In this document: positions 13,625 through 58,778 of the stretch, piece after piece
Position numbering within the stretch: position 1 is the stretch's first letter
Layout of the letters: every line of letters starts with the position of its first letter
Origin: Peptococcaceae bacterium BRH_c4a
Lineage (GTDB): Bacteria; Bacillota; Desulfotomaculia; Desulfotomaculales; Desulfocucumaceae
Assembly: GCA_000961585.1 (NCBI GenBank)
Contig: LADN01000053.1
Coordinates: forward strand, 438 to 64,437
DNA length: 64,000 nt
Direction: 5' to 3'
Program-made: the position numbers and the translations under genes
Notes under the pieces: generated by a model
Databases searched by the model: none
What the model was told of the DNA's origin: nothing
What the model saw: the letters and a program-made list of their open reading frames with translations, nothing else

Positions 13625-13630
13625 CAGAAT

Positions 13631-13708
13631 AACCGCCTATCGGCGGTGCCGTCTTGCAGACGGCGGAATCCAGAATCCAGAAGCCAGAATCCAGAATAGT
13701 GACAGCAA
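13631..13708. repeat. Mosaic intergenic repeat, copy 1 (hairpin module + CCAGAAT heptamer array + GTGACAGC linker)
   Basis: Hairpins CCGCC-TATC-GGCGG and GCCGTCT-TGC-AGACGGC. Then CCAGAAT/CCAGAAG x4 (13670-13697), then AGTGACAGC. A 30-nt block, TGCCGTCTTGCAGACGGCGGAATCCAGAAT, is identical to 16778-16807. Confidence 0.85.
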
Positions 13709-13810: not shown

Positions 13811-14248
13811 CTATTTAACGATATCATTGAGTGGGACATTCAAAATATCCAGCACGAAAGCCACTATTGCCTCTGCCTTGTATACCAGCACCGCTGAAAG
13901 GGTGGCTGTTACTCCGCCCCCTTTGATGATCTCAACCTTCCTGGAATCCCTTAGCCCGCCCCCCGCAGCCTGAACTCCCATAAACAAAACCGCAATGGCA
14001 AAGAAAGTGATAAACAGCGTCCTGACGGAATTAACTATGCTCCCTCCTATTTTGCCCACCTGATTTTTCAATTCATCAGCACCCTGACTGCTAACCCCCT
14101 TGGACAGGTCATAGTCGGCTTTCTGACTGGAAGTTTCTGCCTGGGCAGGATCTATTACTCCCTGCATTGTTAAAAGAGGCATTATCGATACAATCATGAT
14201 GAAAAGCATAAAGGCAGCTGTATACGTTGGATTAAGCCTGATATTCAT
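13811..14248 (-). CDS. Small secreted/membrane protein, candidate VirB2/TrbC-like T4SS pilin
   Basis: 145 aa. N-terminal signal/anchor (...DPAQAETS), then two hydrophobic helices split by a short charged loop (LFITFFAIAVLFMGVQAAGGGLRDSRK...VTATLSAVLVY). This is VirB2-like topology, called by architecture and position only. Confidence 0.35.
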   Translation of the reverse strand: MNIRLNPTYTAAFMLFIMIVSIMPLLTMQGVIDPAQAETSSQKADYDLSKGVSSQGADELKNQVGKIGGSIVNSVRTLFITFFAIAVLFMGVQAAGGGLRDSRKVEIIKGGGVTATLSAVLVYKAEAIVAFVLDILNVPLNDIVK

Positions 14249-16355: not shown

Positions 16356-16757
16356 ATGAAAAATCTGATCAAGGTAGACCAAAAAACACGCCGGGACAAA
16401 ATACTGGAATTGCTTAAATACAGAAACCTGACTCTGGGCGATGTCCGAAAGGCTGCGGGCTTATCCAGGGCCACCATGAGCCGCCTGATGAACAGCCCCG
16501 AAGGCTATGCGCCATCGGAGGACACCATAAAAAAAATTGCCCTGGTACTGGAGGTCAACCCCTTATATCTTAAGGATGAAAATGTTGTGGGCCCGGAGGA
16601 GATTTTTCCCTATCTCACCGAAGATGACATAAAGTTTTTCATGGACCTGAAAAATTTGCCCTTTATAAAGCTCACCAAAGAAATTGCAGCCGAGGGAATA
16701 AGCCCCGATGATATGAGGAAATTAGTGCAAATACTGCTGTCTACCCGGGACGACTAA
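16356..16757 (+). CDS. XRE-family HTH transcription regulator
   Basis: 133 aa. RNLTLGDVRKAAGLSRATMSRLMNSPEG..PSEDTIKKIALVLEVNPLYL is a classic HTH_3 pattern. Confidence 0.6.
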   Translation: MKNLIKVDQKTRRDKILELLKYRNLTLGDVRKAAGLSRATMSRLMNSPEGYAPSEDTIKKIALVLEVNPLYLKDENVVGPEEIFPYLTEDDIKFFMDLKNLPFIKLTKEIAAEGISPDDMRKLVQILLSTRDD

Positions 16758-16760
16758 AAT

Positions 16761-16890
16761 AACCGCCTTGCCGGCGTTGCCGTCTTGCAGACGGCGGAAT
16801 CCAGAATTCAGAATTCAGGAGACAGAATTCTGGTTCGATTAAACAGCATAACAGTCTTTGGTTTTTCCATTCTGAGTTCTGAGTCCCGTC
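16761..16890. repeat. Mosaic intergenic repeat, copy 2
   Basis: Same hairpin module as copy 1, then CCAGAAT/TCAGAAT/TCAGGAG/ACAGAAT (16801-16828) ending in the palindrome CCAGAATTCTGG-like. An inverted ACTCAGA-type tract follows at 16867-16885. The 20 nt TCAGAATTCAGGAGACAGAA (16808-16827) equal the reverse complement of 58759-58778. Confidence 0.85.
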
Positions 16891-16892
16891 TT

Positions 16893-17759
16893 TTAAAAAT
16901 TAATCACCATTCCCTCATATGCAGCGGCGCACTGTATATCATGCTTATTCTGTAAAAACCAGATCTGCGCTTCCTCCTGCAACAGGTCCAACTGTTCATC
17001 GGTGCGGTCAGGATCATGATGATATAGCACCAGGCGCCTGACTCCTGCAGCCACAGCCAGCTCACAGGACTGGCTTATCATGCTGTGCCCCCACCCATGC
17101 TTCAGTGGCATGTCCTGCTGGGTGTACTGGGCATCGTGAATAAGCAAATCTGCATTTTTACAAAAACTGACAAAAGAGTCGAAATCATTTACTTTCCCTT
17201 CGGGAGGATTCAGCTCATTGTCTGTAAGGTATACCACCGTTCGGCCGTCATTCTCAATACGATAACCATAGGCTCCTCCCGGATGGTTGGTGGCTATGCG
17301 GGAAATACAGAAACCGTGCTTTTCCATAAACTCGGATATATCGCTGGTGATAATCTGGTATTTGGACGGCAGGCGATCCATGCTGACCGGAAAATGAGCG
17401 CCATCCATCTGCTTAAACAGGGAATTAAACATAGTTTCGCCCTGTTGATATGGAAACACATATATTACCCTGTCTTTTTGAAAGATAGGTATAAAGAAAG
17501 GAAATCCCTGGATGTGATCCCAGTGAATATGCGTTACAATGACAAATATATCTGTTTTTTGCGCCACCAGTTTTTTGCCCAGTTCACGAATACCCGTCCC
17601 TGCATCAAGAATCAGCGTTTTTTCATTATCCAGGTGAATACTGACACAGGAGGTATTACCCCCATATTTCTTTGTAGATACCCCCGGGCTGGGAATTGAA
17701 CCACGAACTCCCCAGAATTTGACCGCCATTGACTGCTTCATCTTTATCTTCCTCACCAT
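16893..17759 (-). CDS. MBL-fold metallo-hydrolase
   Basis: 288 aa. THIHWDHIQGFPFF (HxHxDH motif) plus downstream His/Asp ligands (NHPGGAYGY, HDAQY, HSM). Confidence 0.8.
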   Translation of the reverse strand: MVRKIKMKQSMAVKFWGVRGSIPSPGVSTKKYGGNTSCVSIHLDNEKTLILDAGTGIRELGKKLVAQKTDIFVIVTHIHWDHIQGFPFFIPIFQKDRVIYVFPYQQGETMFNSLFKQMDGAHFPVSMDRLPSKYQIITSDISEFMEKHGFCISRIATNHPGGAYGYRIENDGRTVVYLTDNELNPPEGKVNDFDSFVSFCKNADLLIHDAQYTQQDMPLKHGWGHSMISQSCELAVAAGVRRLVLYHHDPDRTDEQLDLLQEEAQIWFLQNKHDIQCAAAYEGMVINF

Positions 17760-19055: not shown

Positions 19056-19559
19056 ATGCTGAACAAAATACTTGATCAAATGAAGATTGTCTTCGGAGAC
19101 GACAGCAGGAGGATAAAGCATGCCCTGGATGTACTAAAATGCGCCTCCTTCTTATGTGATTCGGAATACCCGGCTGGTACCGAAATAAAAAAGACAGTGG
19201 AACTGGCCGCCGTTCTTCATGACATAGGCATAAAACAGGCTGAGGCCCTTTATAACTCGTCCGCCCCAGCCTACCAGCACCTGGAAGGACCGCCCATAGC
19301 CCGCAGCATCCTTAAAAAAACCGGCCTGGCGGAGGATACCATTGAAAGGGTCTGCCATATCATTGGAAACCACCACCTTAAGTCGAAAATAGACGGCATG
19401 GATTTTCAGATCCTGTGGGAAGCCGATCTACTGGTCAATTTGCCTGACTTTCCTGTGCTGAACAGGGATTTTAAAACTTATGAAAAAATGGTTTTTAATA
19501 ACTTCAAAACAGGTACAGGCGCCCAGGCGGCCCTGGATCTACATGGCAGGAATTCATAG
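19056..19559 (+). CDS. HD-domain phosphohydrolase
   Basis: 167 aa. HALDV..., AAVLHDIG and IIGNHH are the metal-ligand motifs of the HD superfamily. Confidence 0.75.
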   Translation: MLNKILDQMKIVFGDDSRRIKHALDVLKCASFLCDSEYPAGTEIKKTVELAAVLHDIGIKQAEALYNSSAPAYQHLEGPPIARSILKKTGLAEDTIERVCHIIGNHHLKSKIDGMDFQILWEADLLVNLPDFPVLNRDFKTYEKMVFNNFKTGTGAQAALDLHGRNS

Positions 19560-19978
19560 CAAAAAACGCCCTGACGAGCGTTGCCGGCTAAGGAAAGGGG
19601 ACACACCTCTCTAGTGTGACTGCCTCCGTGGGTCAGAGGAATGTCCCCGATGCTTAGACGGCGGAAGCCAGAAGCCAGAATTGTGACAGCCTGCCTTAAA
19701 AGCGACCCTCAAGAGACCCCACAGCGACATGCAGTGAGGGGGAGGGGTTTTAGTCCAGGCGGATGCTGGAATAGTCGTCAGTCGTAGGACTTCAGACGTC
19801 GGAATAGTTTCATTTTACCTCTGGTCAAAAGACTTTAAGACCTACGACTGAAGACTGACGACCGACGACTGATACAGCCAGTTCAGCCGGAGGATAAGTA
19901 GATCGGACTCAAACCCCTCCACCGGCCACAGAGTGACCCAGGAGCGACCCTCAAGCGACATGCAGTGAGCTTGCTTCC
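19560..19978. repeat. Composite repeat element A (terminator module, nested hairpin, heptamers, conserved 70-nt block, about 180-nt hairpin, flanking direct motif)
   Basis: The 70-nt block 19675-19744 is the near-identical reverse complement of 27527-27596. A long imperfect hairpin runs 19741-19920, with arms GGAGGGGTTTTAGTCC / GGACTCAAACCCCTCC and internal GACTGAC-type heptamers. The motif GCGACCCTCAAG..CGACATGCAGTGAG occurs on both sides (19702-19737, 19944-19969). Confidence 0.85.
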
Positions 19979-20317
19979 TTATATAGCTGCCTCACCTGTT
20001 TCACCTGTTCTTATCCTGACTGCGGTGTCCACAGGGCTGACAAAAATCTTTCCGTCACCAATTTCTCCCGTCACAGCCGATTTTCTAATCAGATTTACCA
20101 CCGCATCTGCAGTTTCGTCCTTAACAATTACCTCAAGCTTAACCTTGGGCAGCAGGTTGATGGTCAGCTCGGTTCCCCGGTATACCTCTTTACGCCCCTT
20201 CTGAAGCCCGCAGCCCATCACCTGCATAACCGTCATTCCATGTACCCCGAACTGATTTAACGCCTCTTTGACATCTTCCAGTTTTCCAGGCCGAAGTATG
20301 CACTCGATTTTTTTCAT
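19979..20317 (-). CDS. glnB: P-II family nitrogen regulatory protein (orphan paralog)
   Basis: 112 aa from ATG 20317 (AAGGAGA sits 6 nt upstream). [20 protein letters not shown]..., T-loop [14 protein letters not shown], and C-terminal [10 protein letters not shown]...RIRTGE. Confidence 0.9.
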
Positions 20318-20352
20318 ATTCATTCTCCTTCTCTATTTTACAGAGATATTAT

Positions 20353-20397
20353 AAAACATAAAGCCCGGCATCTTAATTGCAATTAAGATGCCGGGCT
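20353..20397 (-). terminator. Intrinsic terminator of the zinc-ribbon gene, overlapping a candidate promoter for the orphan P-II gene
   Basis: 17-bp stem AGCCCGGCATCTTAATT / AATTAAGATGCCGGGCT, then TTATGTTTT on the minus strand. Also on the minus strand, TTAAGA-17 nt-TATAAT (the -10 at 20348-20353) overlaps the 3' arm. Confidence 0.7.
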
Positions 20398-20534
20398 ACA
20401 ATGCCCTCAAGCACTCAGCAGTGAGTACTATTTAAAACTTCAAAAACAATATACCATATATTATCTCGAAGATCGCATGCTTTTCTGATTTTTTCAACTG
20501 AGACTCCAAACCATTCCAGGTTTGACTTTACTTA

Positions 20535-27158: not shown

Positions 27159-27174
27159 AATGACCGCCCGTCAG

Positions 27175-27196
27175 GGCGTTTTTTTATCGTTAAGGA
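27175..27196 (+). terminator. Intrinsic terminator after the M24 gene (first copy of a duplicated 22-nt terminator)
   Basis: CGCCC-GTCA-GGGCG followed by TTTTTTTA. The same 22 nt recur at 27634-27655. Confidence 0.7.
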
Positions 27197-27197
27197 A

Positions 27198-27655
27198 AGT
27201 ATATGCCGCATTAAAGCATTAAAGCACTGAAGCACCAAAGCATTTTTATGCAAGCCCAGAGTTTTTCCGGGGTCGCTCCGGGGTCACTTGAGGGTCGCTG
27301 CATTGTCGCTAATGGGTAGGCGGAGCGATTTAAGTCCGGCCTGCATTACCTCCTGCTGCAACTGTCTCTAAACTCGGTCGCCAACGGAATGCCGACCGCC
27401 TCCAACGCCGCATCCTTGCGTCGATTCCGGCTTCCGGCTGCGTCCTGCAGCCGGCTCGGCATTCCGTAGGCTCGGTCGTTAAGAGACAGTAGCAGCCTCC
27501 GGTACATTCCGCACGGACTTAAATCACTCCCCCTCACTGCATGTCGCTGTGGGGTCGCTTGAGGGTCGCTTTTAAGGCAGCCTGTCACCATTCTGGATTC
27601 TGGATTCTGGCTTCTGGATTCTGGATTCCCAAGCGCCCGTCAGGGCGTTTTTTTA
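27198..27655. repeat. Composite repeat element B (inverted relative to element A), bracketed by a duplicated terminator
   Basis: 8-mer array ATTAAAGC x4 (27220-27251) and 11-mer array GGGGTCGCTCC-type x4 (27279-27322). About 190-nt hairpin (27337-27525, arms GATTTAAGTCCG / CGGACTTAAATC). Conserved 70-nt block 27527-27596, then ATTCTGG heptamers x5 (27590-27624), then terminator copy 27634-27654. Confidence 0.85.
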
Positions 27656-27754
27656 TTGAGTCTTTAGGCGTACCACTATTTGCCGGTGGCTTTCCTCTCC
27701 GAGAAACTATATATTAAAAAAATAGAGATACTCACGAAAGCCAGGGGGTGAAGC

Positions 27755-29164: not shown

Positions 29165-29187
29165 AATAGCCGCCCTAACGGGCGGCT

Positions 29188-34743: not shown

Positions 34744-34764
34744 AAAAAACCGCCCAACGGGCGG
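34744..34764 (-). terminator. Intrinsic terminator ending the murE-like 3' region
   Basis: On the minus strand, CCGCCC-GTT-GGGCGG is followed by TTTTTT. It lies 140 nt beyond the stop codon, and repeat tracts fill the gap. Confidence 0.65.
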
Positions 34765-50044: not shown

Positions 50045-50395
<351 letters not shown>

Positions 50396-58743: not shown

Positions 58744-58778
58744 ATTCTGAATACTGTCTTCTGTCTCCTGAATTCTGA
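58744..58778. repeat. Heptamer tract between the polyferredoxin stop codon and its terminator
   Basis: ATTCTGA ATACTGT CTTCTGT CTCCTGA ATTCTGA. The reverse complement shares 20 identical nt with 16808-16827. Confidence 0.8.

What the first reader, a model, noticed from the sequence alone, without database searches (positions are those of the whole stretch)
19560..19978. Composite element A: a 420-nt structured repeat forming the whole region between the orphan P-II stop codon and a distal terminator
Read on the minus strand, in the direction of the P-II gene, the order is:
1. the stop codon
2. CTCACTGCATGTCGC-TTGAGGGTCGC-TCCTGGGTCAC, about 11-nt phased G(T)CGC/GTCAC units
3. a roughly 180-nt imperfect hairpin (19741-19920) whose interior is built from GTCAGTC-type heptamers
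4. a second copy of CTCACTGCATGTCGC...TTGAGGGTCGC inside a 70-nt block shared with element B
5. CTTCTGG heptamers
6. a hairpin nested inside the split GCCGTCT...AGACGGC module (GGGGACA..CCTCT / AGAGG..TGTCCCC)
7. AACGCTCGTCAGGGCGTTTTTT

Elements A and B share the same architecture and flanking blocks, but their long hairpins have different sequences. That is conserved structure with a variable core.

This pattern would fit a family of structured 3'-UTR or non-coding RNAs, a REP/BIME- or MITE-like mobile repeat, or recombination sites. I cannot tell which.
Basis: seen in the sequence. Interest (0 to 1): 0.65.

Follow-up and report, generated by a model that had tools for sequence, protein, structure and literature searches.

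The report
High-copy nested-hairpin intergenic repeat
The 420 bases after the P-II gene are one truncated copy of a modular, hairpin-rich non-coding repeat that occurs a hundred or more times in this subsurface Firmicute genome, and the commonest core of that repeat family is the known but unexplained TwoAYGGAY RNA motif.

Summary
Every listed feature is present at 19560-19978 on the minus strand, with small corrections.

Element A is not a locus-specific structure. It is one copy of a dispersed, non-coding, modular repeat family. The exact 21-mer at the foot of the hairpin occurs at more than 118 places in Mont Terri rock-porewater metagenome contigs. Contig depth suggests roughly 200-700 copies of the commonest module per genome equivalent.

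A full element is about 390-520 nt and has this order:
- a left arm that starts directly after the T-run of a native terminator
- 8-nt repeats
- 11-nt phased GGGTCRC units
- a 180-275-nt nested hairpin
- the R-block CTCACTGCATGTCGC
- CCAGAAK-type heptamers
- a GCCGTCT hairpin
- the element's own intrinsic terminator

The hairpin core comes in three discrete types. The commonest, as in element B, passes the Rfam gathering score for TwoAYGGAY (RF01731), always on the strand opposite the terminators. A carries the rare GTCAGTC type, has no Rfam match and lacks the left arm.

One related strain lacks the hairpin at this locus. Another carries an inverted fragment there, and a more distant relative has no element.

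Best reading: a BIME/BOX/MITE-like repeat that locally supplies the 3' UTR and terminator of P-II. The mobilising mechanism and any RNA function remain unknown.

The parts
19979..20317 (-). P-II (GlnB/GlnK-family) gene. Element A begins 9 nt after its stop codon.
   Evidence: The 112-aa product is on record on 20 contigs with Pfam PF00543. ORF listing.
19970..19978 (-). Native 3' flank GGAAGCAAG, shared with relatives. It is not part of the repeat family in A-type copies.
   Evidence: The same 9-10 nt follow the P-II stop in L083 and in L213-216. Homology of A to paralogous A-type copies starts only at A position 29.
19955..19969 (-). R-block copy 1 (CTCACTGCATGTCGC). In full elements this block lies 3' of a hairpin, so here it marks a missing upstream unit or left arm.
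   Evidence: The same junction type is seen between tandem hairpins in L106, L119 and L171.
19922..19954 (-). 11-nt phased GGGTCRC units (TTGAGGGTCGC, TCCTGGGTCAC, TCTGTGGCCGG).
   Evidence: The unit number differs between strains at this locus.
19741..19923 (-). 183-nt nested hairpin. It has type-1 outer stem arms at 19904-19921 and 19741-19758, and a rare GTCAGTC-heptamer core at about 19765-19874.
   Evidence: Fold. There are 6 unique contexts of this core among 60. Paralogues are 97-98% identical. The hairpin is absent from strain L083.
19683..19738 (-). R-block copy 2 plus 11-mers plus TTTTAAGGCAGGCTGTCAC. This is the most repeated part of the family.
   Evidence: 88% identical to B. 127 unique right-flank contexts. 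Depth is 200-690 times that of the unique flanks.
19663..19682 (-). Heptamer repeats (ATTCTGG, CTTCTGG), two units.
   Evidence: Other copies have 2-6 units, and strain L083 has about 4 at this locus.
19583..19662 (-). GCCGTCTAAG..CTTAGCCGGC hairpin enclosing the GGGGACA..TGTCCCC hairpin (19597-19648). This is a separate repeat module that in most copies is replaced by the plain GCCGTCTGCAAGACGGC hairpin.
   Evidence: The same nested form occurs in L099, L117, L127, L189 and L111.
19561..19582 (-). Family terminator T1 (AACGCTCGTCAGGGCG plus T6). It abuts the stop codon of the convergent HD-domain gene (19056-19559, plus strand).
   Evidence: Terminator scan. The same hairpin occurs at 27165 and 27634. 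Relatives have a different, native bidirectional terminator at exactly this position.
27165..27656 (+). Element B, a complete member of the family: T1, left arm with 8-mers, 11-mers, 212-nt TwoAYGGAY-type hairpin, R-block, 5 heptamers, T1.
   Evidence: BLAST pile-up defines the boundaries. Rfam RF01731 scores 47.1 bits at 27347-27504 on the minus strand.
13626..13706 (-). Tail-only module (GCTGTCAC, heptamers, GCCGTCTGCAAGACGGC, T2-like terminator) after ORF 13811-14248.
16755..16832 (-). Tail-only module (heptamers, GCCGTCTGCAAGACGGC, T2 terminator) after ORF 16893-17759.

Best explanation
Element A is a 5'-truncated copy, with a rare core variant, of a high-copy, non-coding, modular repeat family built from nested palindromes. 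The host is an uncultured anaerobic Firmicute, probably a Peptococcaceae population, from Opalinus Clay porewater.

Shown:
- The family has on the order of a hundred or more dispersed intergenic copies.
- It has a fixed module order and ends in its own intrinsic terminator.
- Its left end lies directly after T-runs, which in most cases belong to unique native terminators.
- Its hairpin core comes in three cassettes, the commonest being an Rfam TwoAYGGAY member on the opposite strand.
- Copies differ by unit slippage, cassette replacement and recombination.
- The P-II/HD spacer carries different versions in different relatives.

Inferred:
- The family is selfish, non-autonomous mobile DNA. It would be spread in trans by an enzyme not encoded next to it, or by recombination or template switching at hairpin-plus-T-run sites.
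- At this locus it is read through from P-II, forming a 420-nt highly structured 3' UTR that ends at T1. As with REP/BIME, BOX, ERIC and Correia elements, it could then affect mRNA 3'-end stability and termination without being tailored to P-II.
For: Copy number:
- There are 127 unique right flanks and 54 unique left flanks.
- About 79 stretches come from one assembly, with 6 sites on a single 109-kb contig.
- Depth of the R-block bin is 207-690 times that of the unique flanks in four runs.
- Assemblies break inside A.

Family boundaries and grammar.

Terminator association:
- All 54 left junctions follow a T-run.
- 23 of 36 non-element upstream sequences are stable, unique hairpins.
- The other 18 junctions follow T1 or T2 of another element.

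Gene context: 15 convergent, 23 tandem and 4 divergent spacers. Only 2 of 147 hits lie inside ORFs of 120 aa or more.

Core types and length classes (180-189, 210-219 and 260-279 nt).

Rfam: TwoAYGGAY hits in B and in 6 further loci, always antisense to the terminators.

Hairpin constraint:
- 70 pairs, 7 of them with compensatory changes between subfamilies.
- 171 G-U cells on the Rfam strand against 34 on the terminator strand.
- The Rfam strand is more stable in 26 of 26 copies.

Locus history:
- L083 lacks 231 nt, namely one R-block plus the hairpin.
- L213-216 have an inverted, degenerate tail fragment plus a native terminator.
- The loci of the 72% relative have no modules.

A-type paralogues are 97-98% identical from A position 29 onward.

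No repeated ORF lies near the elements in about 1 Mb.
Against: - No terminal inverted repeats were found, and no target-site duplication.
- No transposase, RAYT or IS200-type TnpA was found in about 1.07 Mb around the elements. That search was limited and used a query sequence recalled from memory.
- No clean empty site for a complete element was recovered. Synteny simply breaks at B in the closest relative.
- The single presence/absence case inside A could equally be a deletion between the two 15-nt direct repeats.
- The G-U asymmetry and the Rfam match favour a single-strand fold antisense to the terminators. The 3' UTR reading does not explain this.
- No transcript data exist.
Confidence: 0.72

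Rival explanations
1. The elements are genes for trans-acting small RNAs of the TwoAYGGAY class. For example, they could be sponges for the RNA-binding protein CsrA, transcribed from the strand opposite the terminators. A would be a diverged member.
For: - B-type cores reach the Rfam gathering score.
- The Rfam strand folds better and keeps G-U pairs.
- GGA motifs sit in both terminal loops.
- Gardner and Eldai proposed CsrA binding for TwoAYGGAY (PMC4333381).
- Many native terminators abutting the left end are bidirectional and could end an antisense transcript.
Against: - A itself has no Rfam match and folds equally on both strands.
- A hundred or more near-identical copies, truncated copies and cassette swaps are not typical of sRNA genes.
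- No promoter-like site was found on either strand inside A or B.
- No CsrA homologue was found in about 1 Mb. This is inconclusive and used query sequences recalled from memory.
- No RNA data exist.
Confidence: 0.12
2. The elements are sites for site-specific or homologous recombination, and their role is genome rearrangement. The terminator hairpins would act as crossover sites.
For: - B is bounded by a 23-nt direct repeat of the terminator.
- Synteny with close relatives breaks exactly at the elements.
- Contigs join P-II or the HD gene to other neighbours through A.
- Recombinant outer and middle stems exist, in L184 and L124.
Against: - No recombinase is associated with the elements.
- Alternative joins may be assembly chimeras at repeats.
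- Rearrangement at dispersed repeats is an expected by-product rather than evidence of function.
- Left and right T-runs do not co-vary, so they do not look like the two halves of one crossover site.
Confidence: 0.06
3. A is a dedicated cis-regulatory 3' UTR of the P-II gene.
For: - It fills the whole space between the stop codon and the terminator.
- It is very stable.
Against: - The same modules follow more than 100 unrelated genes.
- Relatives with a 97%-identical P-II have a different, inverted or no element.
Confidence: 0.03
4. The arrangement at A is an assembly artefact that joins P-II and the HD gene through a repeat.
For: - Contigs break in A, and L079, L087 and L088 show other joins.
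- The A-type core has about 3-9 copies.
Against: - P-II and the HD gene are adjacent and convergent in L083 and in L213-216, from independent studies.
- Five independent assemblies leave P-II into the same R-block, 11-mers and hairpin arm. Three leave the HD gene into the same tail and hairpin arm.
Confidence: 0.03

Closest known systems
TwoAYGGAY RNA motif (Rfam RF01731; Weinberg et al. 2010, PMC2864571)
   Same: The commonest core of this family (element B and 6 other loci tested) passes the family's gathering score. It has the long closing stem and two terminal-loop GGA hairpins. The original alignment is also multi-copy in Psychromonas ingrahamii and Pelotomaculum thermopropionicum, and its authors note very long P1 stems.
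   Different: Element A does not match. The motif is only the innermost roughly 160 nt of a 390-520-nt composite. In this organism it is present in very many copies. The first loop reads CAGGAC, lacking the Y of AYGGAY.
BIMEs / REP elements of enterobacteria (from established knowledge)
   Same: Extragenic, hundreds of copies, mosaics of small palindromes and linker motifs, mostly at gene 3' ends. They can act in termination and mRNA 3'-end protection.
   Different: No REP-like 5' tetranucleotide, no alternating-orientation REP pairs, and no RAYT gene found. The central hairpin here is far larger (180-275 nt).
BOX elements of Streptococcus pneumoniae (boxA-boxBn-boxC; from established knowledge)
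   Same: Modular structure of left arm, variable number of central units and right arm. Non-coding, intergenic, strongly folding, with no known transposase.
   Different: No sequence relation was tested or seen. The elements here carry terminators and short tandem repeats of 7, 8 and 11 nt.
MITEs such as bcr1 of the Bacillus cereus group and Correia elements of Neisseria (from memory)
   Same: Small, non-coding, dispersed, able to fold. bcr1 is flanked by TTTAT, and the elements here have TTTAT on both sides.
   Different: No terminal inverted repeats at the element ends. The TTTAT at the right end belongs to the element's own terminator and does not co-vary with the left flank.
Class C bacterial group II introns (insert after intrinsic terminators; Robart et al. 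2007, from memory)
   Same: Left end placed immediately after a terminator hairpin plus T-run.
   Different: No group II ribozyme domains. There is no Rfam hit to Intron_gpII or group-II-D1D4 even at E = 10 or below. No reverse transcriptase is present.
IS200/IS605-derived palindrome-associated elements (PATEs)
   Same: No inverted terminal repeats, no target duplication, hairpins near the ends, and a short conserved sequence 5' of the left end.
   Different: No TnpA found (limited search). Orientation with respect to genes is only weakly biased, 36 to 23. The G-U asymmetry points to the strand opposite the one expected on the lagging-strand template for co-oriented copies (inference).

Membership tests
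Rfam TwoAYGGAY (RF01731) | Covariance-model score at or above the gathering score (43 bits) | tested here: not met
   Element A has no hit with E = 10 or below, apart from a chance 13.6-bit snoRNA match. Element B scores 47.1 bits, and six other family members score 45.6-48.8 bits.
Rfam TwoAYGGAY (RF01731) | Two terminal loops with AYGGAY inside a long closing stem | tested here: not met
   The core of A is a single long hairpin built from GTCAGTC-type heptamers with one terminal loop. B-type copies have the two loops, CAGGAC and A(A/U)GGA(U/C).
MITE | Terminal inverted repeats at the element ends | tested here: not met
   The left end is CGTTAAGGAAAGTATATG and the right end is a hairpin plus TTTTTTTAT. 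The inverted repeats are internal, forming the hairpin.
MITE | Target-site duplication | tested here: not met
   Left T-run variants (TTTGT, TTCAT, TTTAC) are not mirrored at the right end in 16 paired junctions.
MITE | Small, non-coding, multi-copy, with insertion polymorphism | tested here: met
   Elements are 390-520 nt with no conserved ORF. There are more than 118 sites. L083 lacks the hairpin unit. Relatives carry other versions at the locus.
MITE | A related autonomous element encoding a transposase | tested here: inconclusive
   No hairpin arms enclose cargo. No multi-copy ORF lies in about 1 Mb around the elements. The whole genome was not available.
REP/BIME | Extragenic mosaic of short palindromic units in hundreds of copies | tested here: met
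   Module grammar. Depth ratios. Gene context.
REP/BIME | Cognate RAYT (TnpA-REP) gene in the genome | not testable with these tools
Only about 1.07 Mb of this population was in hand, and it gave no IS200-like hit.
Class C group II intron | Ribozyme domains (D1-D6), detectable with the Rfam models | tested here: not met
   No Intron_gpII or group-II-D1D4 hits in A or B at E = 10 or below, nor in the window at gathering score.
Class C group II intron | Insertion just after an intrinsic terminator | tested here: met
   23 of 36 non-element left junctions follow a unique stable hairpin plus T-run. 18 further junctions follow T1 or T2.
IS200/IS605-derived PATE | Y1 HUH transposase (TnpA) available in the genome | tested here: inconclusive
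   No tblastn hit with an IS200 TnpA sequence recalled from memory in window plus loci. The genome is incomplete.

The most novel reading that the evidence does not exclude
The composite could be a new kind of transposase-less, terminator-seeking mobile element. Its conserved functional core would be the TwoAYGGAY fold, acting as a single strand (RNA or ssDNA) on the strand opposite the element's own terminators. TwoAYGGAY in Clostridia, gut metagenomes and Psychromonas would then be the mobility or maintenance module of a cross-phylum family of nested-hairpin repeats, rather than a free-standing sRNA.
Probability: 0.18. Interest if true: 0.75.

Novelty: new variant of a known kind. Interest (0 to 1): 0.5.

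Why it matters
**The TwoAYGGAY motif.** TwoAYGGAY has been an orphan Rfam motif since 2010, with one untested proposal that it is a CsrA sponge. Here it is the commonest core of a very abundant, modular, terminator-bounded repeat, with alternative cores such as the one in A. That changes the question about the motif from regulator to repeat or mobile-element part. It also gives a natural series of core swaps on which to test the idea.

**The host organism.**
- The family probably makes up a few percent of the genome.
- It supplies many gene-end terminators.
- It marks synteny breakpoints.
- It is the reason the metagenome assemblies fragment.

**Element A.** For A alone the result is more ordinary. 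It is a truncated copy of a repeat, not a P-II-specific RNA.

Tried and rejected
- **Genome-contig scan.** A scan with the 15-mer gave 78 loci that are all chance hits, with at most 19 matching bases.
- **Rfam on A.** Nothing was found.
- **Other known element types.** I considered a group II intron, retron, CRISPR array and integron attC. There are no ribozyme or RT-associated Rfam hits, no RT gene nearby, and the hairpins are far longer than attC sites.
- **Protein coding.** The 81-aa ORF across B (27346-27591, minus strand) is not conserved, because copies differ by 1-30-nt indels.
- **Target-site duplication.** None was found.
- **Cargo-bearing or autonomous versions and multi-copy ORFs.** None were found.
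- **tblastn searches.** Searches with IS200 TnpA and CsrA sequences recalled from memory gave no hits. This is inconclusive.
- **Promoter scans in A and B.** No internal promoter was found.
- **Viral contigs, plasmid and phage collections.** No matches.
- **RNA runs.** Only DNA metagenomes hold the locus. The 4% word shares in marine metatranscriptomes look like low-complexity noise.
- **Empty site for B via the closest relative.** Synteny ends at the peptidase stop codon, so there is no clean comparison.

Full report
**The observation.** On the minus strand the P-II gene (19979-20317) ends in TAA.
- The 15-mer CTCACTGCATGTCGC occurs three times in the window against 0.05 expected.
- A contains a 38-nt internal direct repeat 231 nt apart.
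- A shares 108 nt at 88% identity with element B.
- As a single strand A folds at -171 kcal/mol, z = -5.7.
- Corrections are minor: two heptamers only, and the 3' half of the split hairpin is AGCCGGC.
- The two long hairpins share a homologous outer stem. Only their interiors differ.

**It is a large repeat family.**
- The P-II and HD proteins are on many metagenome contigs from Mont Terri Opalinus Clay porewater (Bagnoud et al. 2016, PMC5067608). Nearly all of those contigs end inside A, as happens at repeats.
About 79 of them come from one assembly, and six sites lie on one 109-kb contig.
- I found 127 different right flanks and 54 different left flanks. Almost no genes are shared between the loci, so these are distinct places.
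- Summed contig depth over the R-block is 207-690 times that of the unique flanks in four runs. The outer stem of A is at roughly 45-100 times, and the interior of A's core at only 3-9 times. These ratios are upper estimates if other organisms in the samples also carry the repeat.

**Anatomy of a full element.** A full element is about 390-520 nt.
- It starts with CGTTAAGGAAAGTATATG immediately after a T-run.
- 8-nt repeats (GCATTAAA-like) follow, and then CAGAGTTTTTC.
- Next are 11-nt phased GGGTCRC units and one nested hairpin, sometimes two in tandem.
- After the hairpin come CCC plus the R-block, 0-2 more 11-mers, and TTTTAAGGCAGSCTGTCAC.
- Then come 2-6 heptamers (ATTCTGG, CTTCTGG or CTCCTGG), usually followed by the hairpin GCCGTCTGCAAGACGGC. 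In some copies that hairpin encloses a further 65-nt hairpin, as in A.
- The element ends in one of two terminators, T1 (CGCCCGTCAGGGCG plus a T-run) or T2 (GCCGGCAAGGCGG plus TTATTTTAT). Similarity stops right after that T-run.
- Tail-only versions serve as gene-end terminators, twice in this window.

**Where elements sit.**
- All 54 left junctions follow a T-run. In 23 of the 36 cases where the upstream sequence is not itself an element, that T-run belongs to a stable hairpin of unique sequence, that is, a native terminator. In 18 more it belongs to T1 or T2 of a preceding element.
- Elements lie in convergent (15) and tandem (23) spacers far more often than in divergent ones (4), and almost never in ORFs.
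- There are no terminal inverted repeats, and no duplication that co-varies between the two ends.

**The cores.**
- Hairpins fall into three length classes and three core types on two or three outer-stem types.
- The commonest core, as in B, reaches the Rfam gathering score for TwoAYGGAY in B and in six of six further loci of that type. The match is always on the strand opposite the element's terminators.
- Across 26 unique copies the consensus fold has 70 pairs. Seven of them show compensatory double changes between the two subfamilies.
- Wobble pairs are strongly one-sided, with 171 G-U cells on the Rfam strand against 34 on the other. That strand is more stable in all 26 copies. The copies are related by descent, so this amounts to a few independent events, not 26.
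- A carries the rare GTCAGTC-heptamer core. It has no Rfam match, equal stability on both strands and 97-98% identity to paralogues at other loci from A position 29 onward.
- A lacks the left arm and instead begins with an R-block, the kind of junction otherwise found between tandem hairpins.

**History of this locus.**
- Strain L083 (HD side 93.6% identical) has the same tail and terminator but lacks 231 nt, namely one R-block and the whole hairpin. It also has a different number of heptamers and 11-mers.
- An 87% relative from another study (L213-216) keeps a native bidirectional terminator next to the HD gene. After the same GGAAGCAAGC it carries a degenerate tail fragment in the opposite orientation.
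- In a 91% relative the HD gene has the same native terminator but a different neighbour.
- In a 72% relative P-II sits beside amtB, and the sampled region contains no family modules.
- So in the window lineage T1 stands exactly where relatives have a native terminator, and the spacer has been remodelled repeatedly. Whether the hairpin was inserted here or deleted in L083 cannot be decided.

**Interpretation.**
- The family behaves like the mosaic extragenic repeats known from other bacteria (BIME/REP, BOX, bcr1, Correia). It has its own grammar and a striking placement after terminators.
- I favour selfish, non-autonomous DNA that locally provides P-II with a structured 3' UTR and a terminator.
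- What moves it is not shown. No linked or repeated ORF, no IS200-type TnpA and no matches in viral, plasmid or phage collections were found.
- The strand asymmetry of the TwoAYGGAY-type hairpin, together with the published CsrA-sponge proposal (PMC4333381), keeps an RNA function for the B-type core alive. There is no promoter prediction, no transcript evidence and no CsrA gene in the sequence in hand.
- The original TwoAYGGAY alignment shows that the motif is also multi-copy and embedded in longer repeated units in Psychromonas ingrahamii, and has very long closing stems in gut metagenomes. The repeat-element view may therefore hold more widely. This is a lead, not a result.

**Verdict.** Element A itself is an ordinary, truncated member with a rare core. 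The family as a whole is undescribed as far as I could find, and it gives a new context for an orphan Rfam motif.

Noticed in passing
window 27347-27504 (-): Rfam TwoAYGGAY (RF01731) hit of 47.1 bits inside element B. It lies on the strand opposite the flanking gene and terminators.
   Followed up: yes
window 13626-13706 (-) and 16755-16832 (-): Tail-only modules of the same family (heptamers, GCCGTCTGCAAGACGGC hairpin, T2-type terminator) end two unrelated genes. T1-like hairpins also occur at 29171-29184 (-) and 34751-34763 (-), and heptamers at 58758-58778 (+).
   Followed up: partly
window 20348-20425 (-): Upstream of P-II lie an R-block-like remnant (CTCACTGCTGAGTGCTTGAGGGC), a perfect 16-bp hairpin terminator and a TTAAGA-17-TATAAT promoter-like site. 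The P-II gene is therefore bracketed by family-derived sequence. In a 72% relative (L218-221) P-II lies next to amtB, which is absent here.
   Followed up: partly
window 50046-50345: A second P-II paralogue, 75% identical in DNA to 19980-20279.
   Followed up: no
L222:1210-1229; L217:1885-1921: Synteny with the closest relatives ends exactly where the window has elements B and A. The next gene differs in both cases.
   Followed up: partly
L182:12581-12842: OLE (ornate large extremophilic) RNA, 190 bits, cut by the contig end. This is consistent with an anaerobic Firmicute host.
   Followed up: no
window 13648-13664, 16779-16795 and many loci: The hairpin GCCGTCT-GCA-AGACGGC is an inverted pair of the first seven bases of the Neisseria DNA uptake sequence (recalled from memory). 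This is probably coincidence in a Firmicute.
   Followed up: no
Weinberg 2010 TwoAYGGAY alignment, Psychromonas ingrahamii NC_008709 rows: The flanks of the Psychromonas copies are themselves repeated. They contain ACGCCGUCAGGGCG, nearly the T1 hairpin CGCCCGTCAGGGCG found here, but in the opposite relative orientation.
   Followed up: no
L079:10490-11530: A 346-aa protein with a weak HNH_4 match lies a few kb from an element-bearing spacer. It was not examined.
   Followed up: no
window 19853-19857 region (paralogous copies): Paralogous copies of the A-type core differ by 7- and 14-nt deletions, that is, whole heptamer units. This indicates slippage inside the stem.
   Followed up: no
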